DNA of 27,732 bases. Source: a virus (taxonomy: Duplodnaviria; Heunggongvirae; Uroviricota; Caudoviricetes). This document shows positions 333 to 21,416 of the stretch, piece by piece (the first letter of the stretch is position 1; every line of letters starts with the position of its first letter). The stretch lies in the IMG/VR virus record IMGVR_UViG_2778261570_000016; one strand, written 5' to 3'. The position numbers and the translations under genes are program-made. Below the pieces are notes generated by a model. That model searched no databases. It worked only from the letters and a program-made list of their open reading frames with translations, and was not told where the DNA came from.

Positions 333-597
333 CCTTTCCGGATTGCTGAATGTGGCGTTATGCACGGTTATCGTGCTGACGCTCTTTTTTTATCGCCGCC
401 GTGATTCCAGACATAAACCGCTGATGTCATGGCTGGCCTGGCTGCTGATGCTGCTGTATGCCTTTGCGCCCCTCAGCTATCTGTGTGGTCGCCCGTTAGC
501 AACGGGCTGGCTGGAAGTGTTTTTTAACCTGCTGTTTTGCGTGCTGGTGGTACGCGCACGCGGGAACGTCGCAAGAATCTTTCCATTGTTGAGGTGA
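322..597 (+). CDS. Small membrane protein, holin/antiholin-like
   Basis: ATG at 322 preceded by GGAGGAG; 91 aa with hydrophobic helices and basic patches; stop lies 2 nt before the endolysin ATG. Confidence 0.45.
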   Translation: MLSNLSGLLNVALCTVIVLTLFFYRRRDSRHKPLMSWLAWLLMLLYAFAPLSYLCGRPLATGWLEVFFNLLFCVLVVRARGNVARIFPLLR

Positions 598-599
598 AT

Positions 600-977
600 A
601 TGTCGGGTAAATTCAGATTCAGCCGTCGCAGTGAAAAAAATCTGGAGGGCGTCAAACCACAGCTGGTTGCTGTCGTTCGCCGTGCCCTTGAGCTGACGGA
701 GGTTGATTTCGGTATTACGGAAGGGCTGCGCAGTAAGTATCGCCAGAAACAGCTGGTCGCAGAAGGTAAGAGCCAGACCATGAACAGCCGCCACCTGACC
801 GGTGATGCGGTGGATGTTGTGGCCTACATTGGCAGCCAGGTGTCATGGGACTGGCCTCTGTACGAGAAAATCGCGCAGGCATTTAAGCAGGCTGCCGCAG
901 AGCTGGGAACCGCCATTGAATGGGGCGGGGACTGGAAAACACTGAAAGACGGGCCTCATTTTCAATTGAAGCGATAG
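600..977 (+). CDS. Endolysin, peptidase M15 family (L-alanyl-D-glutamate endopeptidase type)
   Basis: Translation contains SRHLTGDAVD and DGPHFQ, the zinc-ligand His/Asp motifs of M15/VanY-like phage endolysins. Internal ATG (MSGKFRF) with GAGG RBS preferred over the longer ORF-track start at 537. Confidence 0.85.
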   Translation: MSGKFRFSRRSEKNLEGVKPQLVAVVRRALELTEVDFGITEGLRSKYRQKQLVAEGKSQTMNSRHLTGDAVDVVAYIGSQVSWDWPLYEKIAQAFKQAAAELGTAIEWGGDWKTLKDGPHFQLKR

Positions 978-1575: not shown

Positions 1576-1758
1576 ATGACGCGAAAACACTGGACACACA
1601 GAATGCCGCGAACGGCGGCGAAATGGGCACTGGTAGCGATACTGGTGCCTTTTTTTCTGGTGGGATGCGTCAGTCTGGATAAGGCGCGCCAGCTTTTCGA
1701 TACAGCTTCTCAGGTCTGTGAAATTGTCAACGGTGTTCGGCAGTGCCTGCAGAACTGA
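1576..1758 (+). CDS. Small lipoprotein (60 aa), possibly o-spanin-like or a lysogenic-conversion lipoprotein
   Basis: Signal peptide ending in lipobox L-V-G-C (AILVPFFLVGC); mature part about 30 aa with two Cys (QVCEIVNGVRQC). Confidence 0.45.
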   Translation: MTRKHWTHRMPRTAAKWALVAILVPFFLVGCVSLDKARQLFDTASQVCEIVNGVRQCLQN

Positions 1759-2162: not shown

Positions 2163-2957
2163 ATGAGCGAGAAATTGAAGATCGTCTATCGCCCGTTACA
2201 AAAACTGTCTCCGTATGCGCACAACGCCAGGACACACAGCCCTGAGCAGGTGGCACAACTGGTAGAAAGCATTAAGCAATTCGGCTGGACCAATCCGGTG
2301 CTGATTGACGAAAAGGGCGAAATTATTGCTGGTCACGGTCGCGTGATGGCGGCTGAGGTGCTCAAAATGGATTCTGTTCCGGTCATTGTTCTGTCTGGCC
2401 TGACGGATGATCAGAAAAAGGCGTACCGCCTGGCAGATAATCGCCTGCCGCTCAACGCTGGCTGGGATGAAGATCTGTTACGGATGGAGCTGTCGGACCT
2501 AATCAATGCTGATTTTGATATCTCCCTGACAGGATTCAGCCCGACAGAAATTGATGAACTGTTGACGGATGTTTTGCCCGGTACAGGAAATAATGAGGAG
2601 GAACCGTACACGACGAAAATTGATACGCCTGTTTATGAGCCGTCAGGCGATAAACCGGATATCAGTGAACTGTACGACGATACGAAAACTCAGGAGCTGG
2701 TCAGCCGGATACGTTCGGCGTCCCTTGAGCCTGATATCGAAAAATTCCTCCTGTGCGCGGCAGAACGTCACACGGTGTTTAATTTCAGCAGAATTGCGGA
2801 CTATTACGCTCACGCCCCCGCTGAAATTCAGAGCCTTTTTGAGGAGTCGGCGCTGGTGATCATTGATTATCAGCAGGCTATTGAAAATGGATTTGTCCGG
2901 ATGACGCAGCGCATGGTGGAGATCATGCATGGCGGGGAGGAGGAGGAATATGCGTGA
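2163..2957 (+). CDS. ParB-like nuclease domain protein
   Basis: N-terminal ParB/sulfiredoxin-type region (KLSPYAHNARTH...GEIIAGHGRVMAA) as found in phage ParB-like nucleases upstream of terminase genes; acidic C-terminal tail. Confidence 0.75.
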   Translation: MSEKLKIVYRPLQKLSPYAHNARTHSPEQVAQLVESIKQFGWTNPVLIDEKGEIIAGHGRVMAAEVLKMDSVPVIVLSGLTDDQKKAYRLADNRLPLNAGWDEDLLRMELSDLINADFDISLTGFSPTEIDELLTDVLPGTGNNEEEPYTTKIDTPVYEPSGDKPDISELYDDTKTQELVSRIRSASLEPDIEKFLLCAAERHTVFNFSRIADYYAHAPAEIQSLFEESALVIIDYQQAIENGFVRMTQRMVEIMHGGEEEEYA

Positions 2958-3882
2958 TGATTTTTGCGCCTTTATTCTGACTCACGGGCGTCCGGACAAA
3001 GTTCTGACTTACCGGACGTTGCGTCGTGCTGGCTATACCGGGAAAGTTTTTATCGTTGTTGATGATGAAGATAAGACACGGCATCAGTACATAGCTGAAT
3101 TTGGTGAACAGGTGCTGGTGTTTTCCAAAGCCGATATAGCCAGTCGTTTTGACGAAGCCGATAATTTCGGTGATCGCCGCTCAATTTTTTACGCCCGTAA
3201 TGCCAGTTTTGACCTGGCAAAAAAGGTCGGGTGTAAATACTTCATTCAGCTCGATGATGATTATCACGAGTTTCAGTTTCGGGTGGATCGCAACTATGAC
3301 CAGGCCTATTTTCCGATAAGGAAACTGGATGCGATCCTTTCTGAAATGCTGGCGTATTACGAATCAATACCTGCTCTTTCCATCGCTATGTCGCAGGGCG
3401 GGGATTTTCTCGGTGACAATGGCGGCCATGCTTCATGGGTGAAACGCAAGGCAATGAACAGCTTTATCTGTTCGGTTGAGCGACCGTTCTCATTCATGGG
3501 GCGCATTAACGAGGATGTGAATACGTACACGAATCTCGGTCGCCGTGGTGAATTGTTTATGACGATCGGTGCTGTCCAGTTAGGGCAGAAACGGACGCAG
3601 AAAAACAGCGGCGGAATGACCGAGCTGTATCTGGATTCCGGAACCTACGTTAAAAGTTTTTACTCCGTCATGTATGCGCCGTCGTGCGTAAAAATCTCAC
3701 TGATGGGTGCCAGCCATAAACGCATTCACCATCAGGTCACCTGGAACAACGCTGCAGTAAAAATCCTTCACGAAAAATACAGGAAGAAGACACCCTGCAT
3801 ATCAATGGGGGTGACAAATGATTCCGTATTCGAAAGTCGAGTCTCTGGCTGCGTGCCGGATGACTGCACAACAAATCGCTGA
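2950..3882 (+). CDS. Hypothetical protein with GT-A-like (nucleotide-sugar transferase-like) motifs; function unknown
   Basis: ATG inside GGAGGAGGAGGAATATG overlapping the ParB stop. Beta-strand/acidic pattern FILTHGRP...FIVVDDEDK...FIQLDDDY resembles the DXD signature of GT-A fold transferases. No transmembrane segment. Functional call is weak. Confidence 0.55.
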   Translation: MRDDFCAFILTHGRPDKVLTYRTLRRAGYTGKVFIVVDDEDKTRHQYIAEFGEQVLVFSKADIASRFDEADNFGDRRSIFYARNASFDLAKKVGCKYFIQLDDDYHEFQFRVDRNYDQAYFPIRKLDAILSEMLAYYESIPALSIAMSQGGDFLGDNGGHASWVKRKAMNSFICSVERPFSFMGRINEDVNTYTNLGRRGELFMTIGAVQLGQKRTQKNSGGMTELYLDSGTYVKSFYSVMYAPSCVKISLMGASHKRIHHQVTWNNAAVKILHEKYRKKTPCISMGVTNDSVFESRVSGCVPDDCTTNR

Positions 3883-4069
3883 CGTTCTGGATGTTGATCT
3901 GAACCGACTGAAAGAAAATCGGGAAGCAATGACAAATTTTTACGCGTCCATCCGTAAGGGCAGAGCGAAAGGTGAAGCCGAGCTACGGGCGGCATTGTTT
4001 AAGCTTGCCAGAAAAGGGGATGCCTTTGCCCTGCGCGAACTACTCAGGGTGGATAAAAATCAGGATTAA
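3818..4069 (+). CDS. Small putative DNA-binding protein (83 aa)
   Basis: GGGGGTGA RBS; helix-turn-helix-like segment (MTAQQIADVLDVDLNRL); overlaps the upstream gene by about 65 nt, so the start could instead be the internal ATG at 3860. Confidence 0.45.
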   Translation: MIPYSKVESLAACRMTAQQIADVLDVDLNRLKENREAMTNFYASIRKGRAKGEAELRAALFKLARKGDAFALRELLRVDKNQD

Positions 4070-4072
4070 CTG

Positions 4073-5164
4073 ATGAGCAGACCGGACTGGGGGGCGTTGC
4101 AGCAGGAGTATATTGCTGAATACACCCGCTCCGGTATATCTCCGGTGGCATGGTGTGAAGCAAGGGGACTGAATTACGCAACAGCCCGTCGTTACATCAA
4201 AAAACCTCCGAAAAATGCGCAGGCAGAATTGCGCAAAACTGCGCAAAAAAGTGCGCAGAAAAAACCTGCGCAGACTGCGCAAAAGCTGAACGGAAAATCT
4301 CAGGAAAAAAAGCCAGTATCCGATGCGTACCTGAATGAGGGCGATGCGGAAGAAATTTCGTTCTGTCCCGATGAATTCGGCATTTCAGACCAGCAGGCGA
4401 AATTCGCAATGCTGGTTGCCCAGGGTAAAAAGCCGACTGAGGCATACCGACTGGCTGGTTATGAAGGGCAAGGTGCGACAGCAAACAGCAACGCCAGCCG
4501 TATGCTTAGAAATGCCAGGGTTTATCGTGCCATCAGTTACTTTCGCAATCAGTACCAGAAACGCTATACCGCAGACCTGGATTTGCTGGTGAGTCAGTTG
4601 ATGGCCATCGTCCAGGCCGACCCCAATCAGTTGGCACAATTTCGCCGTGTTAACTGCCGTTATTGCTGGGGCGAGAATCACCTCTACCAGTGGCGTGATA
4701 TTGCAGAATTCGATAAGGCAGCGGCACAGGCCTCCAGAGATGGCAAACCCGAGCCGGAATATGGAGGCCTCGGCTTTGTTGATAACGCCATACCCAATCC
4801 GGACTGCCCGAAGTGCTGCGGTGAGGGAACGGGACAGCTTTATATGGCTGATACCACTCTGCTTGATGGGGATGCGCGGCAATTATATGCAGGGGCAAAA
4901 CTCGGAAAATTCGGCGTTGAGATCCTGCTGGAGGATAAGGCTGCCGCCCGGCGCGAACTTATCAAGCTGATAATGGCGACGAAAGGAAGTTCTGCTGGTG
5001 GTGCAACTGACAGTCGCAATGATCTGGAGCTTGAAGGACTGAGGCTTCGCAACGAAAAGCTGCGCACTGAGATTGAAAACCTCAAAAAAGGCGTGGGTGG
5101 TGAGAATAACGAAATAATTATCCACAACTCTCTGCCGATGCCGGGAGTGGATAATGTCGATTGA
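4073..5164 (+). CDS. Terminase small subunit
   Basis: N-terminal HTH-like region, then the segment ISDQQAKFAMLVAQGKKPTEAYRLAGYEGQGATANSNASRMLRNARV typical of small terminases, Cys cluster and C-terminal coiled coil; directly upstream of and overlapping the large terminase. Confidence 0.75.
   Translation: MSRPDWGALQQEYIAEYTRSGISPVAWCEARGLNYATARRYIKKPPKNAQAELRKTAQKSAQKKPAQTAQKLNGKSQEKKPVSDAYLNEGDAEEISFCPDEFGISDQQAKFAMLVAQGKKPTEAYRLAGYEGQGATANSNASRMLRNARVYRAISYFRNQYQKRYTADLDLLVSQLMAIVQADPNQLAQFRRVNCRYCWGENHLYQWRDIAEFDKAAAQASRDGKPEPEYGGLGFVDNAIPNPDCPKCCGEGTGQLYMADTTLLDGDARQLYAGAKLGKFGVEILLEDKAAARRELIKLIMATKGSSAGGATDSRNDLELEGLRLRNEKLRTEIENLKKGVGGENNEIIIHNSLPMPGVDNVD
4216..4281. repeat. Six copies of palindromic hexamer TGCGCA spaced 9-15 bp apart inside the small terminase gene
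   Basis: Read directly from sequence: TGCGCA at about 4216, 4230, 4240, 4252, 4267, 4276; encodes an AQK-rich linker. Confidence 0.5.
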
Positions 5165-6482
5165 AATCTACCTCCCAAAACCTCATGAGGGGCAAATAGC
5201 TGCATGGACGGCGGCAATAGAGGAACGCTTCCACGCGGTATGCTGTGGTCGTCGCTGGGGTAAAACGGTGATGCTGGTGAACATCGCTACCAGTTTCGCT
5301 ACGCGGAAATTTGCCATTCCTACCACCGGGCAACTTATCGCGGGTAGGGTGGGGATTTTTACCGCGCAATACCGCCAGTACCAGGAAATCTGGGATGAAA
5401 TTAGCGCCGTTCTGCAACCGCTGATCCTCAGTCAGTCAAAAAATGAAAAGCGCATCATTCTCCGTAATGGGGGGCGCATCGACTTTTGGGTAACGGACAA
5501 TAACAAACTGGCCGGGCGTGGGCGTAAATATCACGCTGTGCTGATTGATGAGGCCGCATTCACTAAATCGCAGGAAATGCTCGAGGAAATCTGGCCCCGC
5601 GCTATACGCCCGACGCTTGTTGATTACCGTGGCTGTGCGTGGGTATTTTCCACACCAAACGGTATCGACGAGAGTAATTTTTTCTACGCGATATGCCACG
5701 ATGAATCCCTGGGATTTGTCATGCACCATGCGCCAACTTCGTCGAATCCGTACATTCCGAAAGAAGAACTGGAGGAAACGGAGAAGAAATCCGATCCGCG
5801 CGTCTGGCAGCAGGAATATCTTGCCGAGTTCGTGGACTGGTCCAAAGATGCGTTACTCGATGTCGATAAGCTGCTGGTGGACGGTCAGCCGATTGAGATG
5901 CCGCCGCACTGCGACATGATTTTCGCAGTGATGGATACGGCGTTGAAAGGCGGAACCGAAAATGATGGTACTGGCGTGGTGTATTTCGCTTATGAGTCAA
6001 CGTATTCGGACGAGCCAAAACTGACGATTATTGACTGGGATGTGACGCAAATTAAAGCGTCATTGCTTCCTGAATATATCCCCGGCGTTTATGACAACCT
6101 CGAGCGCCTCGCGAAATTATGCCGTCCGCGTCTGGGCAGCCAGGGAATTTTTATGGAAGACGCCGCGATGGGGGCAATCCTCAACCAGAAGGCGGAAACC
6201 GAAGGCTGGGATATGACGCCGATTAAATCGGCACTAACCAGCAAGGGCAAAGACGAACGGGCGGTGATGGCATCCAGCTACCACTATCAGGGGATGTGCA
6301 AAATCGTCCGGGAGGCTTACGACAAGACCGTTTCATTCAAACGCACCACCGCAAACCACCTCATAAAACAAATCGCCGGGTTCCACCTGGCAGACAAAGA
6401 TGCGCATAAACGTGCTGATGACCTTTTCGATTGTTACACCTATGGATTGATCATCGCGCACGGTAATTACGCGGAATTGTAA
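5154..6482 (+). CDS. Terminase large subunit
   Basis: Walker A-like CCGRRWGKT and Walker B VLIDEAAF in the N-terminal ATPase half; acidic residues in the C-terminal nuclease half; 442 aa; start overlaps the small terminase stop. Confidence 0.9.
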   Translation: MSIEIYLPKPHEGQIAAWTAAIEERFHAVCCGRRWGKTVMLVNIATSFATRKFAIPTTGQLIAGRVGIFTAQYRQYQEIWDEISAVLQPLILSQSKNEKRIILRNGGRIDFWVTDNNKLAGRGRKYHAVLIDEAAFTKSQEMLEEIWPRAIRPTLVDYRGCAWVFSTPNGIDESNFFYAICHDESLGFVMHHAPTSSNPYIPKEELEETEKKSDPRVWQQEYLAEFVDWSKDALLDVDKLLVDGQPIEMPPHCDMIFAVMDTALKGGTENDGTGVVYFAYESTYSDEPKLTIIDWDVTQIKASLLPEYIPGVYDNLERLAKLCRPRLGSQGIFMEDAAMGAILNQKAETEGWDMTPIKSALTSKGKDERAVMASSYHYQGMCKIVREAYDKTVSFKRTTANHLIKQIAGFHLADKDAHKRADDLFDCYTYGLIIAHGNYAEL

Positions 6483-6501: not shown

Positions 6502-7938
6502 ATGGCTGAGATCGAGATTTCTGTAAATCTCAGTTCTTCGCTGATGCGCATTCTTGAGGCTGAAGAAATTCAGCCGGGAACCGACATTGGCTATGAACTG
6601 TGTAAACTGCTGTGGCAGTACCATCCGCTGGGCGGAAAACTTGTCGAAAAACCCATACTGATGGCGATGTGTAAGCCGCGCCAGTATAACGTGGAGACAG
6701 ACCCTGACGAGAGGGTTGTGAGGCGTTTTCAGGAGGTATGGGAACGCATGAAGGTCAACGAGAAGATTAAAAATCTGTTTTTTCTGTCTCGTTGCTACGG
6801 TGCTGCAGCGATCGGCGTGGGCACCGACAGCGTTCCATGTCGTGAACCGCTTCCGACGTTCGGACTGACAGAAGATGACGTGTATATCAACGCGTGGGAT
6901 CCGTTGAACGCTTCCGGTTCGATGGTGACTGACCAGAACCCCAACAGCCCGTTTTTCCAGGAAGCCAATAAAAAACTGAAGATTGGCGGAAAAGACTGGC
7001 ATCCGTCACGCACACTGAAAATCTTCAACGGCACACCGATTTATCTGGAGTTTCAGAGTTCATCGTTCGGATTCACCGGGCGAAGCGTGTTTCAGCGAGT
7101 TCTTTATTCCCTGAAATCCTATATCAATACGATGGAGGCGAATGATCTCGTCAGCCAGAAGGCAGGCGTACTGGTGGCTAAAGTTGTGCAGAACGGTTCG
7201 AAAATTGACGGGATCATGGCTGCTGCCACGGGGCGTAAAAGGGAAAACGTGAAAGCCGCCAAAAATAAAGGCGTGTTGAGTATTGGAAAAGACGAAGACG
7301 TAAGTTCACTGAACCTGCAAAACATCGATGGGGCGCTGAATACATCCCGTGACAACATCATTGCTGATATTGCCGCCGGGAGTGACGTTCCGGCCATTAT
7401 TATCAAGGAAGAAGCATTCAGTAACGGATTCGGTGAAGGTAAGGAGGACTCGAAAGCTATCAGCCAGTATATCGATGGTGTACGCCAGCAGATTGAACCT
7501 GTGATGGATTATTTCGAACGCCTGGTGCAGTACATCGCCTGGAACGAGGAATTTTATCAGTCGCTGAAAAATGATTACCCGGACATCATAACCGACGACT
7601 ATAAAACCACGTTTTACCAGTGGCGACGTGAATTTACCGCGACGTGGCAGGAGCTGGTGGAGGAGTCGCCGGACAAACGCCGGGAAAGCGACAGTAAAGT
7701 GATTCAACAGGCGATAGCACTTTTCTCTGCCGTGTCGCCACAGGTTGATCCTGAAAACCGCGCCGCCCTTGCTGAATGGCTGGCAAGCCTTGTTAATGCC
7801 ACGCAAACCTATGGCGAAGCTCCACTCATCATTGATGTGGACGCGCTGGCGAATTATGAACCACCGAAGCAGGAGACGCCTGATGGCAATTTCCAGCCGG
7901 GCGGTGAGGAAGAAGAAACGGATCAGGACTCTGTATGA
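6502..7938 (+). CDS. Portal protein
   Basis: 478 aa, immediately after the large terminase and before a MuF-like head morphogenesis gene; acidic C-terminus. Confidence 0.7.
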   Translation: MAEIEISVNLSSSLMRILEAEEIQPGTDIGYELCKLLWQYHPLGGKLVEKPILMAMCKPRQYNVETDPDERVVRRFQEVWERMKVNEKIKNLFFLSRCYGAAAIGVGTDSVPCREPLPTFGLTEDDVYINAWDPLNASGSMVTDQNPNSPFFQEANKKLKIGGKDWHPSRTLKIFNGTPIYLEFQSSSFGFTGRSVFQRVLYSLKSYINTMEANDLVSQKAGVLVAKVVQNGSKIDGIMAAATGRKRENVKAAKNKGVLSIGKDEDVSSLNLQNIDGALNTSRDNIIADIAAGSDVPAIIIKEEAFSNGFGEGKEDSKAISQYIDGVRQQIEPVMDYFERLVQYIAWNEEFYQSLKNDYPDIITDDYKTTFYQWRREFTATWQELVEESPDKRRESDSKVIQQAIALFSAVSPQVDPENRAALAEWLASLVNATQTYGEAPLIIDVDALANYEPPKQETPDGNFQPGGEEEETDQDSV

Positions 7939-8716
7939 GGTTCTGACGGATGCCGTTAACTACTACGTAAATCACGGGTGGGATAGCGAAAAATCATTGC
8001 TCGAATGGTGCCGGAAACTCCGTGTAGCCGCTCAGCGAGAAACCCCTGATGATACCGTAGCCAGAAAACATCTCACCGCTATCTACAGCCGTCTTGTCAT
8101 CGACGGCGGGGCATTACGGGATCAGCCTCCTGACGGCCCTAAAAAAATCACTGTTGAAAAACTGAAACCTGAGTTTCGCAAGGAACTCGACAGGCGAATT
8201 TTCGCCAGTGCCAACCTGATAAAACTCAACCGCGAACAGGCTATCGAGAAAACCATACAGCGTTTTCAGGGATGGGTTACGTCCATTCCGCCTGACGGGG
8301 TGAGCGAAATTGATCGCCGGGAAGTGAAGTCCGGTTTTCAGAAGTCCGTGAAGGATATGGATTTTATCAGTCGTCGGGTGGCAATTGACCAGGGGCATAA
8401 GCTGGCAAGCAACGTTAAGTATCTGCTGGCTGTTCAGAGTGGAGCGATTGCTCTGCGCTGGCATTCGAACTGGCGGCGCCCGGGCTACAAATACCGACAG
8501 GACCACAAAGAGCGCGACGAGAAAATTTATCTCCTTCGCGATTCGTGGGCGCTGGAGCAGGGGCTGATTAAGCCCGTATATGGTTTTTATGACGAAATCA
8601 CTGCTGCCGGGGAGGAGGTTTATTGCAGTTGCGATGCTCTGCCGATCTACGCCCCTCAGAAACTACCCGACGAATTTTTAACGGAGAAGGGCAAACGTGA
8701 GTTTAACCGAGCTTGA
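7883..8716 (+). CDS. Head morphogenesis protein (MuF / SPP1 gp7-like minor head protein)
   Basis: Position after the portal; ATG at 7883 with AGGAG upstream chosen over the longer frame start at 7745, which would overlap the portal by about 190 nt. Confidence 0.6.
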   Translation: MAISSRAVRKKKRIRTLYEVLTDAVNYYVNHGWDSEKSLLEWCRKLRVAAQRETPDDTVARKHLTAIYSRLVIDGGALRDQPPDGPKKITVEKLKPEFRKELDRRIFASANLIKLNREQAIEKTIQRFQGWVTSIPPDGVSEIDRREVKSGFQKSVKDMDFISRRVAIDQGHKLASNVKYLLAVQSGAIALRWHSNWRRPGYKYRQDHKERDEKIYLLRDSWALEQGLIKPVYGFYDEITAAGEEVYCSCDALPIYAPQKLPDEFLTEKGKREFNRA

Positions 8717-10019
8717 AGTGGCAGAACGCATCAGGGACGGAACCGTACCGTCTCCGGTGAAATTCTCCAACATGTGGCTGGTGAATTTGCGCATAACCGG
8801 AACCGGGCTTGCCTATCGCGCCGGGCTGAAAGAGCACGTCTGGCGTGATCCAAAGCTCTATCTGAACGAGGAGTTTTTAAGGCGATGCAATGGCCTTCCG
8901 GTTATCGCAAACCATCCTGACGACGCAGTTCTGACGGAGGAGGATTTTAAATCGCGGATCGTCGGTAGCGTCATGCTGCCGTATATCCGGGGTGATGAGG
9001 TATGGGCGGTGTGCCGCGTTTACCTCCAGAGCATTGTTGAAGAAATCGCTGAGGGGGATGTTTCGACAAGCCCGTCGGTGGTGTTCAACAGCACATCAGG
9101 AAATGTGGAAGTACAGGAAGGTGACACCAATTTTTTAATCGAAGGCGTTCCTTTCCTTGTTGATCACATCGCCCTGGTGACGAAAGACCACGGCTCGCTG
9201 GGCGTGTGGGATAAAGACCGGATCCCCGCAGGGGTTGAAGTGACAAACACAGGTGAAATCGAGATGGAAAAAGAAGAACTCCAGGCCCTGTTACAGGGGG
9301 TTGTGAGCGATGCCCTGCAAGGCATTAATCAGAAAATCGATGGTGTCGTTACGCGCATGGACTCACTGGAACAGCGGGACAAAGCGCGGGCGGATGCCGA
9401 AGAGCAGGCGAAAAAAGAGGCCGAAGAAAAGGCCAAAGCCGATGAAGCCGCAGAGGAACAGCGTAAAGCTGATGAAGCTGCGGCAAAGGAGGCGGAAGAA
9501 AAAGCCAAAGCTGACGAGGCGGCAGCTAAAGACGCTGAGGAGAAAGCAAAGGCTGATTCCGAAGCAGAAGAACAGCGTAAGGCCGACGAGGAGGCAGAAA
9601 AAGAACGCAATGATTCTGCCCTGGCAGAAGCGCAGGCAAAAGCCGACTCCGCATTCAGTGCCTGCGGTAAAAACGCGCCAGCACCGTTTTCTGGTGAAAA
9701 TGCGCTGGACTACCGCAAGCGTGCGCTTATCGCTATGCAGAAACACTCTCCGGCACATAAGGACGTCAATATTCGCGCGATTGCGGATTCTGCAACGCTG
9801 GCTGTGCTTGAAGACGCAATTTTCAGTGCCGCCCGTCAGTCCATCGAAAAAGAAATGATGAGTACGCAGGGGCAACTGCATAAACGCATCCGCAACGACG
9901 AAGCCGGGCGTCGCATTACTGAATATCAGGGCGATCCGAATGTCTGGCTGAGTGCCTTCAAAATTCCGGGGCGTCGTCTGGCAAAAATTAACACTCAAGG
10001 GAGCCTGAACAATGGCTGA
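8697..10019 (+). CDS. Putative scaffolding / prohead protease-like protein with central charged coiled-coil repeat
   Basis: GTG start with GGAGAAGG RBS; N-terminal globular region, then a roughly 80 aa K/A/E-rich repeat, then a C-terminal domain; sits between the head morphogenesis and capsid genes. Confidence 0.55.
   Translation: MSLTELEVAERIRDGTVPSPVKFSNMWLVNLRITGTGLAYRAGLKEHVWRDPKLYLNEEFLRRCNGLPVIANHPDDAVLTEEDFKSRIVGSVMLPYIRGDEVWAVCRVYLQSIVEEIAEGDVSTSPSVVFNSTSGNVEVQEGDTNFLIEGVPFLVDHIALVTKDHGSLGVWDKDRIPAGVEVTNTGEIEMEKEELQALLQGVVSDALQGINQKIDGVVTRMDSLEQRDKARADAEEQAKKEAEEKAKADEAAEEQRKADEAAAKEAEEKAKADEAAAKDAEEKAKADSEAEEQRKADEEAEKERNDSALAEAQAKADSAFSACGKNAPAPFSGENALDYRKRALIAMQKHSPAHKDVNIRAIADSATLAVLEDAIFSAARQSIEKEMMSTQGQLHKRIRNDEAGRRITEYQGDPNVWLSAFKIPGRRLAKINTQGSLNNG
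9370..9610 (+). repeat. Imperfect tandem coding repeat (EEKAKADEAA / EEQRKADEAA units)
   Basis: Repeated GAAGAAAAAGCCAAAGCTGA(C/T)GA(A/G)GC-type units seen in the sequence; generates spurious alternative-frame ORFs on both strands. Confidence 0.6.
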
Positions 10020-10629
10020 TATTAACTTTCATCCGTTTAAAAACCGTGGGGCATTTGGTGGCCTTTTTAACGTCGAATCCCGTGGGCTGATGCAGGGCGA
10101 TGCGCAGGATGATCCGGCAATTCGTCTGCAACTTTGCTCCGGTCGACTGGACAGCAAAATCACTGAACCGGTATGGGGCGGTGTCGGAGTTATGGAGTGC
10201 ATCGCTACCGCGAAAGACAGTGTTAACGGCGCGGTTATCAAGCAGGCCACGAAGGACGCCTGTAACGCCTTTACGGTCTTTAATCAGGCATTTCATGGCA
10301 TTACCACGCCGGATAATCCGGTGCCGTTATATCTCGCGGGTGGTTTTGTTCACTATTACCGCGTTGGCTCAGGCGCCCGCATTCCTCTCCCGGTCAGTGC
10401 TGATGTGGTTGCGCTGGCCGATGGCAATAACACCGTTGCGGCCAGTGGTTTTGTGTGGGATCTGACAAATAACGTCATTGATGTTTACACGGGAACGCCG
10501 GGGGCTAATCCGAAAGTGGACATTAAGCTGTTGATGGTTTCAGTTGACGGAAACATGACGGTAAAAAAAGAAAGTGGCGGTAACGTTGTCTGGGAAATCG
10601 GCAAGCCGTGCGGCCTGTTTTTAATTTAA
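10012..10629 (+). CDS. Hypothetical head-associated protein (205 aa)
   Basis: GGGAG RBS; located between the scaffold-like and major capsid genes; no motif recognised. Confidence 0.5.
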   Translation: MADINFHPFKNRGAFGGLFNVESRGLMQGDAQDDPAIRLQLCSGRLDSKITEPVWGGVGVMECIATAKDSVNGAVIKQATKDACNAFTVFNQAFHGITTPDNPVPLYLAGGFVHYYRVGSGARIPLPVSADVVALADGNNTVAASGFVWDLTNNVIDVYTGTPGANPKVDIKLLMVSVDGNMTVKKESGGNVVWEIGKPCGLFLI

Positions 10630-10643
10630 GGGGATATTAATTA

Positions 10644-11672
10644 ATGAGCGCATTTACTCCCGCGACAACTTTTGTGTCGCCGTCAATGGTGCTGCCGGAA
10701 ATGATCGTGCAACAGAGCATGGCTTCCGGTGCGTTTGAAGTCCTGGCTGGTGGTGCTCCAGCGGTAAAAATCAGTTCCAGTGATTTGATGGTCTATCAGA
10801 AATATTTGCGTATGACCTCGCAGGCGCAGGTCAGCCAGTCTCTGCCGGGCCAGTTACCGTCTTCCAGTATCTCTGGCGGCTATGACGGGATGATGACTTA
10901 CCGAATTTCTTCCCGCTCGCAATACAGCTATCTCGATACTGATGCAGCAGATCGCTGGGGCTATTCTCTGATTGAAGGGCTGCGCCTGGCTAACCGCCAG
11001 GGACACGCTCAAATGTTGCGTAATATGCTGCTGTATGGCGTGAATGCAGCTAATAACGAGGGGATCACCAACTCCCCGAACGCAGTGACGCTGAATCTGG
11101 GCAACGACAGCAAAGGTAACGATTCGTACACCACCTGGGATTCCGGCGAGATGGCTAAATTTATGCTTGGCCTGATTGCTGACCAGAAAACCCGCATGTT
11201 GCTGCTGGGGCAGCCATTAACAACTGTCATTCTGAGTCCGCAGCGATTCATGAAGGCGCTGGAGTGGACAGGAATTATTGAGCTGACCAGTTACCAGCGT
11301 CCTGGTGGCGGTACCGGAACGGTGGGAACGATGGTTAAAGATGTTGCTGATAAGGCGACAGGAGATGACATCATTTTCTGCCAGGACGACACGCTGATCG
11401 GTAAAGGTGCTGGTGGTAATGACCTGATCATCGTTACGAACCCGACGATTGAGGTGCCGGAAGCGCGTCACGCCATTAACACCAATATTTTCTCCACGCT
11501 GGTCCCTAACCAGCAGGCCGTCAACGTGATGTTCTGCGACATGGCAGCGCCGACGGAAATCCCGTCCCCTATGCCGGATGGCGGCCTGACCACGTTGTAT
11601 ACCATGCGCGCGACGCCGGGCTGGAACTTCCGCCCGGAGGGGATCACCCTGTTGTCTGCCAAATACGCATAA
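10644..11672 (+). CDS. Major capsid protein
   Basis: 342 aa; position after the scaffold-like gene; AAGGGGA RBS; followed immediately by a strong terminator, typical of highly expressed coat genes. Confidence 0.75.
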   Translation: MSAFTPATTFVSPSMVLPEMIVQQSMASGAFEVLAGGAPAVKISSSDLMVYQKYLRMTSQAQVSQSLPGQLPSSSISGGYDGMMTYRISSRSQYSYLDTDAADRWGYSLIEGLRLANRQGHAQMLRNMLLYGVNAANNEGITNSPNAVTLNLGNDSKGNDSYTTWDSGEMAKFMLGLIADQKTRMLLLGQPLTTVILSPQRFMKALEWTGIIELTSYQRPGGGTGTVGTMVKDVADKATGDDIIFCQDDTLIGKGAGGNDLIIVTNPTIEVPEARHAINTNIFSTLVPNQQAVNVMFCDMAAPTEIPSPMPDGGLTTLYTMRATPGWNFRPEGITLLSAKYA

Positions 11673-11689
11673 ACGTTCAACCTGATAAC

Positions 11690-11717
11690 GCGGGGAGCTA
11701 AATGCTCCCCTTTTTTG
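11690..11717 (+). terminator. Rho-independent terminator after the capsid gene
   Basis: GGGGAGC-taaat-GCTCCCC stem-loop followed by TTTTTT. Confidence 0.7.
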
Positions 11718-11729
11718 TGGGAAAAATTT

Positions 11730-12200
11730 ATGAAGCTCTACATCGCTAACTGCTCACGTCAGCCGCACACGTTCAACTACAAACTCCCCGAAAAAACGCA
11801 GTCGTTCGGTGTGACAATTCCGTCCGGACGTCAGCATATGATCGAAAATCAGTCCGATATTATCGACCACATTATCCGACAGCATGAACCTTACGGGTTC
11901 CAGCGTTGTGACAAGGTGGACAAGAATTTTTCCGGTATCTGCTATTCCATCGATAAACCTGTGAGCGTTGGTCGTATTGAGGATTGCGCGGAGCAGAAAA
12001 CGGAAAATCTGGAATCCATGTCAGAGGAAATTCTTGCGGCCAGCGCCATATCGCTGAATAACGCAGTGGATCAGGCAGTGATTCAGAGCGGCGAAAAACC
12101 TCAACCTGGCGGTATTGAGATGGAAATCACCGGGGAGGCGGTCAACACCGAACAGGAAAATCCGCCCAGCACAAAACGAAATATTAGGGTTAAAAAATAA
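11730..12200 (+). CDS. Hypothetical head completion / head-tail joining protein
   Basis: ATG at 11730 (the frame start at 11715 lies inside the terminator T-run); acidic C-terminus; position. Confidence 0.5.
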   Translation: MKLYIANCSRQPHTFNYKLPEKTQSFGVTIPSGRQHMIENQSDIIDHIIRQHEPYGFQRCDKVDKNFSGICYSIDKPVSVGRIEDCAEQKTENLESMSEEILAASAISLNNAVDQAVIQSGEKPQPGGIEMEITGEAVNTEQENPPSTKRNIRVKK

Positions 12201-12640
12201 TGCCCCTGCGTCCCTCACTGGAGGGATTTATTCGCTTCGTTCGTGATGACATGAAAGTACCGGTTCACGCTATTGCTGACGATGATCCGACGCTGGAATG
12301 TTGCTTTCAGTCTGCGATGGAGCTAATCCCTCACGATCAGGGGCTGGAGCGTTTACCCGTTATCTATGTGCGAACGGTTTATAACGCTGCCGCCTCATTC
12401 CTCCTGAATTTCGCCCCTGGTTCGTGGTTTGCCGACCTGCGAAAAAAACTCAACCTTGGGAAGCTGGCTACCGGGATTATCAGCGCGGCAGCAGACCAGG
12501 GGACATCGGGTTCGATCACCATCAGCGACGCGCTGAGTAATCTGTCTTTGCTGGATTTGCAGATGTTACAGGATCCGTATGGGCGACAGGTTGTTGCGGT
12601 GCTGATGCAGATGGGCACGGTATGGGGGTACACGCCATGA
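12200..12640 (+). CDS. Hypothetical head-tail joining protein
   Basis: TAATG overlap with the upstream stop; position between the capsid and sheath genes. Confidence 0.5.
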   Translation: MPLRPSLEGFIRFVRDDMKVPVHAIADDDPTLECCFQSAMELIPHDQGLERLPVIYVRTVYNAAASFLLNFAPGSWFADLRKKLNLGKLATGIISAAADQGTSGSITISDALSNLSLLDLQMLQDPYGRQVVAVLMQMGTVWGYTP

Positions 12641-13077
12641 AACTTTGTTTTGGTGTTGTTGACCAGCCGTATGACTACGGCGACGAACCGGGGAAAACCA
12701 CGTTCGACGTGGCCTGTGACCTCGAGGAGAGATACGAAATTTTTACGCACTTCTGGGAAATGCATAAGGACGAGATTATCCAGGAGGCAGGTACTGAACT
12801 GGCGTACCAGTTGGTCAATCACCTTAAGCATAAGGCTCCGCTACCAGGCGAGCATTTTCTGGAAGGGACCGGGAAGATTTTCCATATTTTTCTTGAAACT
12901 GAAGAAATGGCCGGGATGACGATTAACGGAAACCCTGTGCCAACTCAGGCCGCGCTACTGGGCGTTAACTCCAGGCTTAAGGACAAATATACCGGAGAGC
13001 GACGTCCGTCATTCATAGACGGCGGCCTGTTTAAGGGCAGCTTTATAGCGTGGATAGATAATAATGCCGAGTCTTGA
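12637..13077 (+). CDS. Hypothetical head-tail joining protein
   Basis: ATGA overlap with the upstream stop (translational coupling); position. Confidence 0.5.
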   Translation: MKLCFGVVDQPYDYGDEPGKTTFDVACDLEERYEIFTHFWEMHKDEIIQEAGTELAYQLVNHLKHKAPLPGEHFLEGTGKIFHIFLETEEMAGMTINGNPVPTQAALLGVNSRLKDKYTGERRPSFIDGGLFKGSFIAWIDNNAES

Positions 13078-14008
13078 GGAATTAGCCGAACAGCACAGTT
13101 CGCAGCTCTCGTCCGTTCTTAAATCCGCAGTTGAAACCATCTCGTCAGACCAGGAAATCACGTTCAGGCTCTATGTCCGGCAGGTTCTGCCGCTGGATGG
13201 CTTTGTCTATTGGGTTAATGCGGAAATCATCAGTTGCGATGAACTGTGTCGCCTGAATATTGAGTCACCAACTCGTCTGAAAATCAAAGGCAGCCTGCAT
13301 CGTCAGGTTATTGCGATTCAGGACGAGTCTGTCTCGAAGGATGTGAACAACATTATTTTCACGCCTGTTCAGCAGGTTGATGATTTTAATGTGGAAAATC
13401 CCGATGCGATCTATCTCGGTGAGTACGGCGGCGTCCAGTTCGCTTTTTCTCGAATGGAGAGCCGCTATCAGCAGTCGGGTATTTTTCATTATCGCGGCAT
13501 GGCGATTTTGCCAACCATGCGTTCCCAGATTATCGACTGCGAGGAGGATATCAGCGACGAGCAGATCATCTCCAACAGCATTCCGATCTGGCTGCAAATG
13601 AAAGATGCCGCGACCGTGTATCCGTCTTACCTGGTACCTCAGAACCTTCGTCCTCCGTATATCGCGGTGGATGTTCGCAACAGTATTCCGTTGCAGGTGG
13701 CTCCCGTTGTTTTCGGTGGTGAGCGATTCCAGCTCGTCCAGGATTCGGTTCGCCTGACGCTTTACGGATTCAGTAACAAAATGGCGCTGGATCTTGTCGA
13801 CTCGGTGGTGAACAGGGCGCTGGAGGAGGAAAAGTTTGGTGTAACCAATATTCCGGTGGTTCAGGACGCAAAGTCGGGACAGGTTGAAATCAACGCTCTG
13901 GCGAAGAAAAAGATTGTCGATTTTGACGTGAATTACTACCAGAGCACCGCCCGGGAAATATCCCGGCAGTTGATTGAAAAAGTTATTTGTAAATATGAGG
14001 TTAAATAA
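13064..14008 (+). CDS. Hypothetical tail completion / neck protein
   Basis: 314 aa directly upstream of the sheath gene; stop overlaps the sheath start (TAATG). Confidence 0.5.
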   Translation: MPSLEELAEQHSSQLSSVLKSAVETISSDQEITFRLYVRQVLPLDGFVYWVNAEIISCDELCRLNIESPTRLKIKGSLHRQVIAIQDESVSKDVNNIIFTPVQQVDDFNVENPDAIYLGEYGGVQFAFSRMESRYQQSGIFHYRGMAILPTMRSQIIDCEEDISDEQIISNSIPIWLQMKDAATVYPSYLVPQNLRPPYIAVDVRNSIPLQVAPVVFGGERFQLVQDSVRLTLYGFSNKMALDLVDSVVNRALEEEKFGVTNIPVVQDAKSGQVEINALAKKKIVDFDVNYYQSTAREISRQLIEKVICKYEVK

Positions 14009-15345: not shown

Positions 15346-15356
15346 GGGACTGAACC

Positions 15357-16414: not shown

Positions 16415-16488
16415 ATGTAAAAACAGCAGCTCAGTTTCGTGAGCTGCGTAAATGCACGACGCCGGGAGGGATATTGAATGTCAGGTAA
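16171..16488 (+). CDS. Tail assembly chaperone -1 frameshift extension (G-T-like fusion C-terminal part)
   Basis: -1 frame open from just upstream of the slippery site to 16488; the ORF-track entry 16186..16488 has no RBS of its own and is embedded. Confidence 0.45.
   Translation, partial: TRFFYMRLVDKHTGADGADDAGSQWNVEQSHFILESYGMDCFIADIEACRQFWRDGEHVISDILDYSAGDGFSDIWANSGLNVKTAAQFRELRKCTTPGGILNVR
16177..16183 (+). other. Candidate -1 programmed ribosomal frameshift slippery heptamer T TTT TTT
   Basis: In the chaperone frame the codons are GTT TTT TTT ACA. The -1 frame has a TGA at 16168-16170 and is then open through to 16488, overlapping the tape measure start. Confidence 0.5.
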
Positions 16489-18451: not shown

Positions 18452-18454
18452 AAG

Positions 18455-21106: not shown

Positions 21107-21136
21107 TACCGGCTCACTTTAAATTACATCCATAAA

Positions 21137-21413: not shown

Positions 21414-21416
21414 CGC

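What the first reader, a model, noticed from the sequence alone, without database searches (positions are those of the whole stretch)
2163..3882. ParB-like nuclease coupled to a GT-A-like enzyme immediately upstream of the terminase genes
The slot between lysis and packaging genes usually holds a ParB-like nuclease paired with a DNA methyltransferase or other DNA-modifying enzyme. Here the partner is a soluble 311 aa protein whose FILTHGRP / FIVVDDEDK / QLDDDY pattern resembles the DXD core of GT-A fold nucleotide-sugar transferases, and its start is embedded in the ParB stop region (GGAGGAGGAGGAATATG). A soluble GT-A-like enzyme here could be a DNA or protein glycosyl/nucleotidyl-transferase used for anti-restriction or virion modification, which would be a little-described arrangement. 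The identification is by motif pattern only.
Basis: partly seen in the sequence, partly recalled or inferred. Interest (0 to 1): 0.65.

Follow-up and report, generated by a model that had tools for sequence, protein, structure and literature searches.

The report
ParB-coupled phage sugar transferase gene pair
Two overlapping late genes of an E. coli prophage encode a sugar-transferring enzyme of the DNA-glycosylating TAGT family and a conserved partner protein; the pair is widespread in viruses of bacteria and archaea, and its target is unknown because these phages lack the usual base-hydroxymethylating enzyme.

Summary

The constant partner of this TAGT clade is not the ParB domain. It is an unnamed ~110-aa domain at the C-terminus of the upstream protein (aa ~146-256). 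That domain lies directly upstream of the TAGT gene in 145 of 146 loci examined, in many bacterial phyla and some archaea. In some loci it is a separate ~132-aa protein. The pair usually sits just before the terminase genes, whatever the terminase family. In other phages it sits in replication modules next to sliding clamps and further sugar-tailoring genes.

No TET/5mYOX or hydroxymethylase gene is annotated in this prophage or in phage phi jlb1. The acceptor is therefore not a phage-made 5hmC or 5hmU.

Best reading (about 0.5): a two-component, ParB-assisted late DNA glycosylation module, analogous to ParB-dependent 5mYOX and DpdA/DpdB. Main rival: glycosylation of the partner protein. This is a known family in an uncharacterised variant.

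The parts
2163..2957 (+). Gene for a 264-aa two-domain partner protein, the full-length version of the gene RefSeq calls ynaK. It has a ParB/Srx N-terminal domain and a TAGT-partner C-terminal domain.
   Evidence: ORF. PHROG 620 matches at 2.7e-89 over aa 1-251. The same gene lies directly upstream of the TAGT gene in all 80 viral loci.
2163..2567 (+). ParB/Srx N-terminal NTP-binding-type domain, aa ~1-135. It carries the motifs NAR (21-23), GWTNP, IAGHGR (55-60) and YRxADN (88-93). There is no HTH DNA-binding domain. The domain is acidic (pI 4.3-4.9).
2598..2930 (+). Unnamed ~110-aa C-terminal domain, aa ~146-256, the constant partner of this TAGT clade. It has a conserved peptide YTxKIxxPxYEP, a four-helix core containing AAxRH and YYAHA, and a SALVIIDY strand-like motif.
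   Evidence: Invariant residues are Y149, P156, Y158, P160, P165, L170, F195, L196, H203, I211, A212, E227, L231-I233, D235 and A239. It occurs as a stand-alone protein of ~132 aa directly upstream of TAGT in L078, Vibrio phage pv27, L163, L165 and L166. There are 1195 representatives in the 50%-identity library, always at the C-terminus of the protein. It has no Pfam or PDB match. In the model the core has pLDDT 83-96, while the two most conserved linear motifs have low confidence.
2936..2957 (+). Translational coupling junction: a Shine-Dalgarno run GGAGGAGGAGGAAT, the ATG at 2950 and the upstream TGA at 2955-2957, giving an 8-nt overlap.
   Evidence: Sequence. The spacing between the two genes is tightly constrained across 145 loci.
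2950..3882 (+). Gene for a soluble 310-aa GT-A glycosyltransferase of the TAGT family, related to JGT and GREB1.
2971..3615 (+). GT-A catalytic core, aa 8-222. It has invariant R14, D38, D41, a DDD at 102-104 (the DXD metal and sugar-nucleotide site) and NEDV at 187-190.
   Evidence: Extent of the Pfam match. Invariant columns. pLDDT is above 88 for most of aa 1-140. [quoted passage not shown]
3616..3819 (+). Clade-specific basic C-terminal module of the TAGT protein, aa 223-290, pI 9.6. It carries invariant GGMT, GTYxK, FY, P244 and RxHH..W and is modelled with low confidence.
   Evidence: PHROG 31222 matches aa 199-280. This region lies outside the Pfam TAGT model.
3818..4069 (+). Small ORF (83 aa from 3818; RefSeq starts it at 3860) with similarity to part of terminase small subunits. 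It is conserved downstream of the pair in enterobacterial loci and overlaps the 3' end of the TAGT gene.
   Evidence: PHROG 309 matches at 2.5e-22. It is present downstream in nearly all loci from L002 to L075. The RefSeq CDS is shown.
4073..6482 (+). Terminase small subunit (4073..5164) and large subunit (5154..6482). These are the packaging genes that follow the pair.
   Evidence: Pfam Terminase_2 and Terminase_6N match, as do PHROG 51 and PHROG 2.

Best explanation
The two overlapping genes form a two-component glycosylation module in the phage late operon that most likely acts on phage DNA. The second gene encodes the catalytic subunit, a soluble GT-A sugar-nucleotide transferase of the TAGT family. 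That family contains the T2/T6 beta-glucosyl-HMC-alpha-glucosyltransferase, the trypanosome base-J glucosyltransferase and phage 5hmC glycosyltransferases.

Its obligatory partner is the ~110-aa C-terminal domain of the upstream protein. I infer that this domain binds the enzyme through its two most conserved motifs, which do not fold in the monomer model. In this prophage the partner domain is fused to a ParB/Srx nucleotide-binding domain that has no DNA-binding HTH. By analogy with ParB-dependent thymine dioxygenases and with DpdA/DpdB, I infer that this domain acts as an NTP-gated adaptor that activates or retains the enzyme on double-stranded DNA.

The pair is transcribed with the lysis and packaging genes. 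It would therefore decorate replicated phage DNA just before the terminase packages it, protecting the DNA in the next host.

Shown here: family, fold and catalytic motifs; gene coupling; near-universal co-occurrence with the partner domain; late-operon or replication-module context; absence of any annotated hydroxymethyl-pyrimidine-forming enzyme.

Inferred: complex formation, DNA as the acceptor, the role of the ParB domain, and the anti-restriction purpose. The acceptor atom is unknown.
For: Enzyme identity:
- Pfam TAGT matches at 1.1e-35.
- BFVD matches are TAGT-domain proteins.
- R14, DDD102-104 and ED188-189 are invariant. These are the motifs reported for DNA-modifying phage GT-A enzymes and JGT.

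Coupling:
- The genes overlap by 8 nt behind a GGAGG run.
- The partner domain is adjacent in 80 of 80 IMG/VR loci and 65 of 66 GTDB loci.
- The partner domain occurs without ParB_N in 16 GTDB loci, in L078 and in Vibrio phage pv27.
- The pair is conserved at 40-47% identity in Lactobacillus phage phi jlb1, halovirus HHTV-2 and Nocardia phage NTR1, and at 27% in a Porphyromonas phage.
- Pairwise identities of the two proteins co-vary: r = 0.96 over all pairs and 0.49 among divergent pairs.

DNA context:
- The downstream genes are terminases of at least 5 Pfam families.
- Stand-alone versions sit in replication modules. L163 reads primase, PolA, sliding clamp, partner domain, TAGT, TAGT, a phosphatase/nucleotidyltransferase fusion, RecU, RecA.
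- L165 adds GT-B enzymes, PIG-L and a methyltransferase.
- In L131 and L156 TAGT lies next to a sliding clamp, and L127 has a TAGT-methyltransferase fusion plus a second TAGT.
- The N-terminal ParB domain is the one found in ParB-methyltransferase fusions (PHROG 498 at 3.3e-51; PMC12704722).

Precedents:
- A phage ParB-like protein without a DNA-binding domain is required by thymine dioxygenase 5mYOX176 on dsDNA (PMC13229309).
- The ParB-like ATPase DpdB is required by DpdA for preQ0 insertion into DNA (PMC10164549).
- Burke et al. [quoted passage not shown]

Expression: no promoter-like site lies between the lysis genes and the pair, and no strong terminator-like site lies inside it.
Against: - No acceptor is evident. 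Characterised TAGT relatives need a hydroxyl on 5hmU, 5hmC or an already attached glucose. No TET/5mYOX or thymidylate-synthase-type hydroxymethylase is annotated in the whole prophage, whose only methyltransferase is of the N6/N4 type. None is annotated in the complete 38-kb phi jlb1 genome. None appeared among the three genes on either side in 72 loci.
- The partner protein is strongly acidic (pI ~4.5) and has no recognisable DNA-binding domain.
- One TAGT-family member, human GREB1, glycosylates a protein (PMC7968844).
- The partner carries an invariant, probably disordered Tyr/Thr-rich peptide that could itself be an acceptor.
- The papers I retrieved report no sugar modification of lambdoid E. 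coli phage DNA.
- In the 5mYOX system, mutating the NTP-binding residues of ParB had little effect, so the NTP-gating step is uncertain even in the precedent.
- No complex could be modelled with the tools available.
Confidence: 0.5

Rival explanations
1. This is a protein glycosylation module. The TAGT enzyme transfers sugar to the partner protein itself, on the invariant Tyr/Thr of the YTxKIxxPxYEP peptide in a glycogenin-like or GREB1-like manner, or it uses the partner as an adaptor to glycosylate another phage or host protein such as a packaging or virion protein.
For: - GREB1, which has a TAGT-type domain, O-GlcNAcylates ER-alpha (PMC7968844).
- No hydroxylated base source exists.
- The partner has an invariant Y149, T/S150 and Y158 in a segment with pLDDT below 50, typical of a peptide that binds in a cleft.
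- The partner is acidic and lacks a DNA-binding domain.
- Cross-host conservation is also expected if the acceptor is phage-encoded.
Against: - The ParB/Srx domain fused to the partner is the one that phages fuse to DNA methyltransferases.
- Stand-alone versions lie in replication modules beside sliding clamps, polymerases and helicases.
- The terminase families that follow the pair differ, so a specific packaging-protein target is unlikely.
- Every characterised viral TAGT-family or phage GT-A enzyme described in the papers retrieved acts on DNA.
- No function is evident for a glycosylated 264-aa cytoplasmic protein.
Confidence: 0.22
2. This is a packaging accessory. The ParB-like protein is a nuclease or site-recognition factor that helps the terminase at pac or cos, as HNH proteins do in HK97-like phages. 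The transferase is a passenger with an unrelated role.
For: The pair sits immediately upstream of terS and terL in phages of Proteobacteria, Firmicutes, Bacteroidota and Actinobacteria. In Lactobacillus phage c5 it lies directly beside the cos site.
Against: - The association holds across at least 5 unrelated terminase families.
- It is lost in phages where the pair sits in replication modules.
- The ParB domain is dispensable in many lineages, whereas the transferase and the partner domain are always kept together.
- The same position holds ParB-methyltransferase fusions, which points to a late-expression slot for DNA modifiers.
Confidence: 0.06
3. The module glycosylates a small molecule or an RNA. 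Possible targets are a nucleotide, an immune-signalling nucleotide or an RNA 2'-OH. The ParB/Srx domain would serve as the nucleotide-binding part.
For: - ParB/Srx folds bind CTP, ATP or GTP, and some are small-molecule kinases such as SerK and SbnI (PMC12704722).
- Ribose hydroxyls are universal acceptors, which would explain the absence of a base-hydroxylating enzyme.
Against: - Late-operon placement is poorly suited to countering early immune signalling.
- The ParB domain is absent in many members.
- The surrounding genes deal with DNA replication or packaging.
- There is no precedent within the TAGT family.
Confidence: 0.07
4. The module causes lysogenic conversion of a cell-surface glycan (O-antigen or teichoic-acid glycosylation), as prophage gtr operons and TarP do.
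For: TarP and other cell-wall GT-A enzymes are among the structural neighbours, and prophages often carry such genes.
Against: - The protein is soluble with no membrane segment, and there are no flippase or GtrA/GtrB-like neighbours.
- The gene lies inside the late lytic operon rather than being a lysogeny-expressed moron.
- The same pair occurs in archaeal, Gram-positive and Gram-negative viruses, whose envelopes share no acceptor.
Confidence: 0.03

Closest known systems
TET-associated glycosyltransferase family (Pfam PF20691): T2/T6 beta-glucosyl-HMC-alpha-glucosyltransferase, trypanosome base-J glucosyltransferase JGT, phage 5mYOX-cluster GT-A enzymes, and the GREB1 C-terminal domain
   Same: It makes a significant Pfam match (E 1.1e-35), has the GT-A fold and carries the invariant R...DDD...ED motifs. 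It is phage-encoded and soluble.
   Different: - There is no TET/5mYOX, no alpha- or beta-GT and no hydroxymethylase in the genome, so the known acceptors (5hmU, 5hmC, glucosyl-5hmC) are not available.
- It has a clade-specific basic ~70-aa C-terminal module outside the Pfam model.
- It has an obligatory partner domain that is not mentioned in the papers retrieved here.
- It is only 25% identical to the match in the T4-like Aeromonas phage Ah1.
ParB-dependent phage thymine dioxygenases (5mYOX176 with ParB176; PMC13229309)
   Same: In both, a phage ParB-like protein that has the nucleotide-binding domain but no DNA-binding HTH is encoded next to a post-replicative DNA-modifying enzyme. Both are often found near terminase genes.
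   Different: The enzyme here is a glycosyltransferase, not an Fe/2OG dioxygenase. The region after the ParB domain is an unnamed domain that also exists on its own, not the canonical ParB C-terminal dimerisation domain. Dependence of the enzyme on its partner has not been tested here.
DpdA/DpdB 7-deazaguanine DNA modification (PMC10164549)
   Same: A ParB-fold NTPase (DpdB) is an obligatory helper of an enzyme that modifies bases in double-stranded DNA.
   Different: The chemistry is different (base exchange) and the ParB subfamily is different (DGQQR motif with an SspE-like C-terminal domain). It is a cellular restriction-modification system, not a phage late gene pair.
Phage ParB-CTPase-fold fusions to N6/N4 DNA methyltransferases (PHROG 498; PMC12704722)
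   Same: The N-terminal domain is the same (PHROG 498 at 3.3e-51 over aa 3-141). Both are enriched in prophages, and both are presumed to modify DNA.
   Different: In those proteins the catalytic domain is fused and is a methyltransferase. Here the ParB domain is fused to an adaptor-like domain, and the catalytic glycosyltransferase is a separate, translationally coupled protein.
E. coli K-12 Rac prophage gene ynaK
   Same: YnaK corresponds to the first 86-87 aa of the window protein. The DNA is 91% identical over 305 bp.
   Different: K-12 keeps only this N-terminal fragment. The partner domain and the whole TAGT gene are deleted, and ydaY is unrelated. The best-studied E. coli strain therefore lacks the system.

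Membership tests
TAGT (Pfam PF20691, TET-associated glycosyltransferase) | Match to the family profile above the curated threshold | tested here: met
   The score is 123.9 bits against a cut-off of 27.5, E 1.1e-35, covering aa 8-222 against profile positions 4-205 of 205. All 120 listed homologues carry PF20691.
TAGT (Pfam PF20691, TET-associated glycosyltransferase) | GT-A (nucleotide-diphospho-sugar transferase) fold | tested here: met
TAGT (Pfam PF20691, TET-associated glycosyltransferase) | Conserved R...DDD...ED(Y/F) active-site motifs reported for phage GT-A DNA glycosyltransferases and JGT | tested here: met
   R14, D102-D104, E188 and D189 are invariant in 36 sequences. The residue after ED is V, not Y or F. 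The motif definition comes from bioRxiv 10.1101/2023.12.21.572611.
TAGT (Pfam PF20691, TET-associated glycosyltransferase) | Genomic association with a TET/JBP dioxygenase or another source of 5-hydroxymethyl-pyrimidine | tested here: not met
   No such gene is annotated in the full prophage L001, and its only methyltransferase is of the N6_N4 type. None is annotated in the complete phi jlb1 genome. None appears in the listed most frequent Pfam families of the three genes on either side of 72 loci. Four unannotated neighbours were checked and none is one.
TAGT (Pfam PF20691, TET-associated glycosyltransferase) | Transfer of a sugar from an NDP-sugar to a modified base in DNA | not testable with these tools
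   This needs biochemistry or nucleoside mass spectrometry.
T-even beta-glucosyl-HMC-alpha-glucosyltransferase (the name attached to PHROG 842) | Acts on alpha-glucosyl-5hmC, so it needs dCMP hydroxymethylase and an alpha-GT in the same phage | tested here: not met
   Neither gene is annotated in the prophage. The PHROG name is inherited from T2/T6 members. NAR 2026 (PMC13216743) reports solitary TAGT homologues in 288 of 753 phage genomes, with their function undefined.
ParB/Srx superfamily (Pfam PF02195, ParB_N) | ParB N-terminal domain profile match and fold | tested here: met
ParB/Srx superfamily (Pfam PF02195, ParB_N) | Conserved nucleotide-binding GxxR (Box II / P motif) arginine | tested here: met
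   IAGHGR (aa 55-60) is conserved in the full-length homologues, with one AGQGR variant. Nucleotide binding itself was not tested.
Canonical chromosome or plasmid partition ParB (TIGR00180) | HTH DNA-binding domain, C-terminal dimerisation domain, and a ParA partner with parS | tested here: not met
   TIGR00180 scores 36.6 bits, below its 58.45 cut-off, and only aa 12-93 match. No HTH or ParB C-terminal Pfam domain is found. No parA is annotated in the prophage.
ParB-like nuclease | DNA cleavage activity | not testable with these tools
   'Nuclease' appears only in annotation names. The nearest structural neighbours are NTP-binding or NTP-hydrolysing proteins and Srx.
ParB-assisted DNA-modification systems (5mYOX-ParB, DpdA-DpdB) | A ParB-fold protein without a DNA-binding domain encoded next to a DNA-modifying enzyme | tested here: met
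   The two genes are adjacent and overlap. No HTH is present. The system definitions come from PMC13229309 and PMC10164549.
ParB-assisted DNA-modification systems (5mYOX-ParB, DpdA-DpdB) | Enzyme activity on dsDNA depends on the ParB-like partner | not testable with these tools
   This needs co-expression with and without the partner, or in-vitro assays. Comparative data show only that the partner's C-terminal domain is never lost.

The most novel reading that the evidence does not exclude
The pair is a two-component DNA glycosyltransferase that puts a sugar directly on canonical DNA, for example on an exocyclic amine of a base, a DNA end or the backbone, with no prior hydroxymethylation. That would be a previously unknown type of DNA modification. 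It would be carried by prophages in roughly a sixth to a quarter of E. coli genomes and by viruses of many bacterial phyla and of archaea. The unnamed ~110-aa domain would be a new obligatory activator or targeting subunit.
Probability: 0.25. Interest if true: 0.85.

Novelty: new variant of a known kind. Interest (0 to 1): 0.6.

Why it matters
All DNA sugar modifications described in the papers retrieved here start from 5-hydroxymethyl- or 5-hydroxy-pyrimidines. This TAGT clade is conserved at 40-60% identity across bacterial phyla and some archaea. It always comes with its own partner domain, and where whole genomes could be checked it has no enzyme that could make such a base. Either it uses a new acceptor on DNA, or it is a viral protein-glycosylation system of unknown purpose.

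It is easy to test. The genes sit in common E. coli prophages, and the K-12 laboratory strain happens to have lost them. Co-expressing about 1.7 kb of DNA and running nucleoside and intact-protein mass spectrometry would settle the question.

It would also add a third enzyme class, after dioxygenases and transglycosylases, to those that work with ParB-fold helpers. It would give a function to a domain that has no Pfam family and that RefSeq left unannotated in the nearest genome, NZ_CP128979.

Tried and rejected
- **PDB sequence search with the TAGT protein:** no significant hit.
- **NCBIfam:** no model matches the TAGT protein.
- **Partner domain against PDB and Pfam:** a profile search of PDB gave only chance-level helical-repeat matches. 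The Pfam scan gave only a weak, recurrent, sub-threshold similarity to PF23887, L5 gp47-like, in 15 of 28 members with best E 0.004. I did not take this as homology.
- **Hidden dioxygenase:** I scanned unannotated neighbours at relaxed thresholds and found none.
- **AFDB50 fold search:** unavailable.
- **Iyer et al. 2013 (NAR), which defined TAGT:** not held in the library. Its ParB hypothesis is cited second-hand from PMC8256090 and PMC13229309.
- **ParB176 sequences:** not available in the supplements, so direct homology of the partner domain to 5mYOX-associated ParB C-termini could not be tested.
- **One literature search:** swamped by irrelevant matches to 'ynak'.
- **Surface-glycan conversion and canonical plasmid partition:** considered and rejected, as explained under the rival explanations and membership tests.
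Full report
**1. What is in the sequence**

The window is the late region of an E. coli prophage. Its closest relative is a prophage in strain TUM1881. That prophage has a Rac-like early region (recE, kilR) joined to a contractile-tail late region.

The region of interest begins after the holins and the M15 endolysin (537..977). ORF 2163..2957 encodes 264 aa. ORF 2950..3882 encodes 310 aa. The ATG at 2950 lies inside the end of the first gene, whose TGA is at 2955-2957, so the two overlap by 8 nt. The run GGAGGAGGAGGAAT at 2936-2949 precedes the ATG. An in-frame ATG at 2929 exists, but every aligned homologue starts at MRDDF, which is position 2950.

Downstream come a small ORF (3818..4069), terS (4073..5164), terL (5154..6482) and the portal gene (6502..7938). 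No promoter-like site lies between the lysis genes and the pair, and no strong terminator-like site lies inside it. The pair therefore belongs to the late transcript.

**2. The enzyme**

The 310-aa protein matches Pfam PF20691, TET-associated glycosyltransferase (TAGT), at E 1.1e-35 over aa 8-222. It matches PHROG 842 at 2.9e-101. UniRef and newer RefSeq annotations call it 'GREB1-related protein'.

R14, D38, D41, D102-D104, Y105 and N187-E188-D189-V190 are invariant down to 59% identity. The NEB group lists the same R...DDD...ED set for phage DNA-modifying GT-A enzymes and the trypanosome base-J glucosyltransferase.

Beyond the Pfam model lies a clade-specific, basic module of about 70 aa (aa 223-290, pI 9.6). 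It has many invariant residues and is modelled with low confidence. The protein has no membrane segment.

**3. The partner**

The N-terminal ~135 aa of the upstream protein form a ParB/Srx domain.
- Pfam ParB_N scores just above threshold.
- The NAR, IAGHGR and YRxADN motifs are conserved.
- There is no HTH, no canonical ParB C-terminal domain and no ParA. The partition-ParB model TIGR00180 scores below its threshold.
- 'Nuclease' is only a name.

The C-terminal ~110 aa (146-256) have no Pfam, NCBIfam or PDB counterpart, yet they are the best conserved part of the protein. The conserved elements are YTxKIxxPxYEP, FLxxAAxRHxxFN, IADYYAHA and SALVIIDYxxAIExGF.

In the model the helical core is confident (pLDDT 83-96). 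The two most conserved linear motifs are not. I read this as segments that fold only against a partner. That is an inference.

The whole protein is acidic, with pI about 4.5.

**4. Co-occurrence**

In 80 IMG/VR contigs carrying relatives of the transferase at 58-98% identity, the partner gene lies directly upstream in every one.

In one-genome-per-species GTDB contigs, the relatives are 41-97% identical. The hosts include:
- Enterobacterales, Bacteroidota and Veillonella
- Clostridia and Planctomycetota
- Spirochaetes, Saccharibacteria and Methanosphaera

Of the 66 loci that contain the transferase N-terminus and enough upstream DNA, 65 have the partner domain adjacent, at a nearly constant spacing.

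The ParB domain is not constant. Sixteen GTDB loci lack it, as do L078 and Vibrio phage pv27. Among those GTDB loci, some have the partner domain as a stand-alone protein of about 132 aa, others have it behind a different N-terminal region, and a few are cut by a contig end. Further stand-alone ~132-aa proteins are abundant in metagenomes.

The exhaustive representative search found 1195 family members. The domain always lies at the C-terminus of the protein. Three stand-alone members looked up at random all had a TAGT gene immediately downstream.

Pairwise identities of the partner domain and the transferase co-vary across 136 loci. The correlation is r = 0.96 overall and 0.49 among pairs below 70% identity. 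This is consistent with inheritance as a unit, although shared phylogeny contributes to the figure.

The pair occurs in these isolated viruses:
- Lactobacillus phages phi jlb1 and c5
- halovirus HHTV-2
- Nocardia phage NTR1
- Porphyromonas phages

In E. coli, 1566 of 5426 complete genomes have a match and 889 have at least 80% of it. K-12 retains only the first 87 codons, as ynaK.

**5. Genomic context**

In small temperate phages the pair precedes terS and terL, whatever the terminase family. Terminase_6N, Terminase_3, GpA, TerL_ATPase and T7-type terminases are all seen. Upstream lie lysis or late-regulatory and replication genes.

In other phages the stand-alone form sits in replication modules.
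- L163 reads primase, PolA, sliding clamp, partner, TAGT, TAGT, a histidine-phosphatase/nucleotidyltransferase fusion, RecU, RecA.
- L165 adds two GT-B enzymes, a PIG-L deacetylase and a methyltransferase.
- L131 and L156 have a sliding clamp next to TAGT.
- L127 has a TAGT-methyltransferase fusion followed by a second TAGT.
- Vibrio phage pv27 places the pair before a helicase gene, with primase and exonuclease genes further upstream.

Tandem transferases, sugar-tailoring enzymes and NDP-sugar-type genes show that these are real sugar transferases building glycans. The DNA-handling neighbours favour DNA as the substrate.

**6. The missing acceptor**

Characterised relatives need a hydroxyl on 5hmU (JGT), on 5hmC (phage GT-A enzymes) or on glucosyl-5hmC (T2/T6). 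The full prophage has no annotated TET/5mYOX and no thymidylate-synthase-type hydroxymethylase. Its one methyltransferase is of the N6/N4 type. All of its unannotated early genes are too small to be a dioxygenase.

The complete 38-kb phi jlb1 genome has none of these genes either. No such family appears among the listed neighbour families in 72 loci, and relaxed scans of unannotated neighbours found none. The acceptor is therefore not a phage-made hydroxymethyl-pyrimidine. This is the main open point.

**7. Mechanism**

The best-supported reading is a two-component DNA glycosylation module made late in infection. The GT-A subunit is catalytic. The partner domain binds and activates or targets it. 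Where present, the ParB/Srx domain acts as a nucleotide-dependent adaptor on dsDNA.

The precedents are experimental.
- Phage thymine dioxygenase 5mYOX176 needs a ParB-like protein, which also lacks a DNA-binding domain, to act on dsDNA.
- DpdA needs the ParB-like ATPase DpdB to insert preQ0 into DNA.
- Phage ParB-fold domains are often fused to DNA methyltransferases.

I put this reading at about 0.5.

The main rival, at about 0.22, is protein glycosylation, above all of the partner's own invariant Tyr/Thr peptide. It draws support from GREB1 acting on a protein, from the lack of a base acceptor and from the acidity of the partner. The remaining rivals are a packaging-nuclease role, small-molecule or RNA glycosylation, and surface-glycan conversion. 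All three fit the data poorly.

**8. Comparison with what is known, and novelty**

The enzyme is a member of the TAGT family by sequence, fold and motifs. It fails the family's eponymous contextual feature, association with TET. The PHROG name 'beta-glucosyl-HMC-alpha-glucosyltransferase' is an over-transfer from T2/T6.

The literature has noted solitary TAGTs of undefined function in 288 of 753 phage genomes. It has also noted ParB-like genes near phage GT-A genes. The large survey of ParB-CTPase-fold proteins does not mention glycosyltransferases.

In the papers I could search, I found no description of three things:
- the unnamed partner domain;
- its near-obligatory pairing with this TAGT clade;
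- its independence from the ParB domain.

I therefore rate this a new variant of a known kind, with moderate to high interest because it is common, conserved and easy to test.

Noticed in passing
L001 20001-20795 (equivalent to window 2163..2957): RefSeq NZ_CP128979 annotates only the first 258 nt of this gene, as a pseudogene 'missing C-terminus'. Yet the 795-nt ORF is identical to the window's and intact. The partner-domain half of the gene is therefore unannotated, probably because the naming model is based on the truncated K-12 YnaK.
   Followed up: yes
window 6502..7938: RefSeq calls this product 'anti-CBASS protein Acb1 family protein'. PHROG 146 (E 4e-75) and its position after terL mark it as the portal protein. 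This is probably an annotation artefact, or an Acb1-like segment embedded in portal-family models.
   Followed up: partly
L162 3378-3981 (E. coli K-12 Rac prophage): ynaK is the first 87 codons of the ParB-like gene, with the DNA 91% identical over 305 bp. ydaY is unrelated to the partner domain and to TAGT. K-12 has therefore lost the transferase through a deletion.
   Followed up: yes
window 3820..3882: The E. coli and Shigella transferases carry a C-terminal tail of about 22 aa that is absent from homologues in other genera. The tail overlaps the next ORF (3818/3860..4069) and is modelled as disordered.
   Followed up: partly
window 2598..2930 and alignment A5: Fifteen of 28 partner-domain proteins give a weak, sub-threshold match (best E 0.004) to PF23887, 'Phage L5 gene 47-like protein', over about 20 residues around FNFxxIADYYAHA. 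This may be a remote relationship or it may be chance.
   Followed up: partly
L127 3581-6161; L137 641-2331; L131 6460-8906; L163 5402-7163: Some genomes have two TAGT paralogues in tandem after one partner gene. L131 has two partner-TAGT pairs. L127 has a TAGT fused to a SAM methyltransferase domain. These suggest di- or oligosaccharide products and sugar methylation.
   Followed up: partly
L163 7160-8098; L156 600-1322: A cytidylyltransferase-like gene lies next to the TAGT genes: a histidine-phosphatase/cytidylyltransferase-like fusion in L163 and a cytidylyltransferase-like protein alone in L156. Each may be a dedicated enzyme for making the activated sugar donor. In one GTDB locus a UDP-galactopyranose mutase was among the two genes downstream of TAGT.
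   Followed up: no
L166 3868-4614: A C5 cytosine methyltransferase lies two genes upstream of a stand-alone partner-TAGT pair, with no recognisable dioxygenase within 5 kb.
   Followed up: partly
L001 1-20000 compared with window 8000..27732: The prophage is a mosaic. Its early region is lambdoid and Rac-like (recE, kilR, replication proteins, RusA, DUF1133). Its virion module is myovirus-type, with a tail sheath (14008..15345), baseplate J and an SLT-domain tail protein. A minus-strand antirepressor gene (21740..22228) is inserted among the baseplate genes.
   Followed up: no
window 1625..1650: A terminator-like hairpin (11-bp stem followed by a T run) lies on the plus strand between the lysis genes and the ParB-like gene, inside the presumed late transcript.
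   Followed up: no
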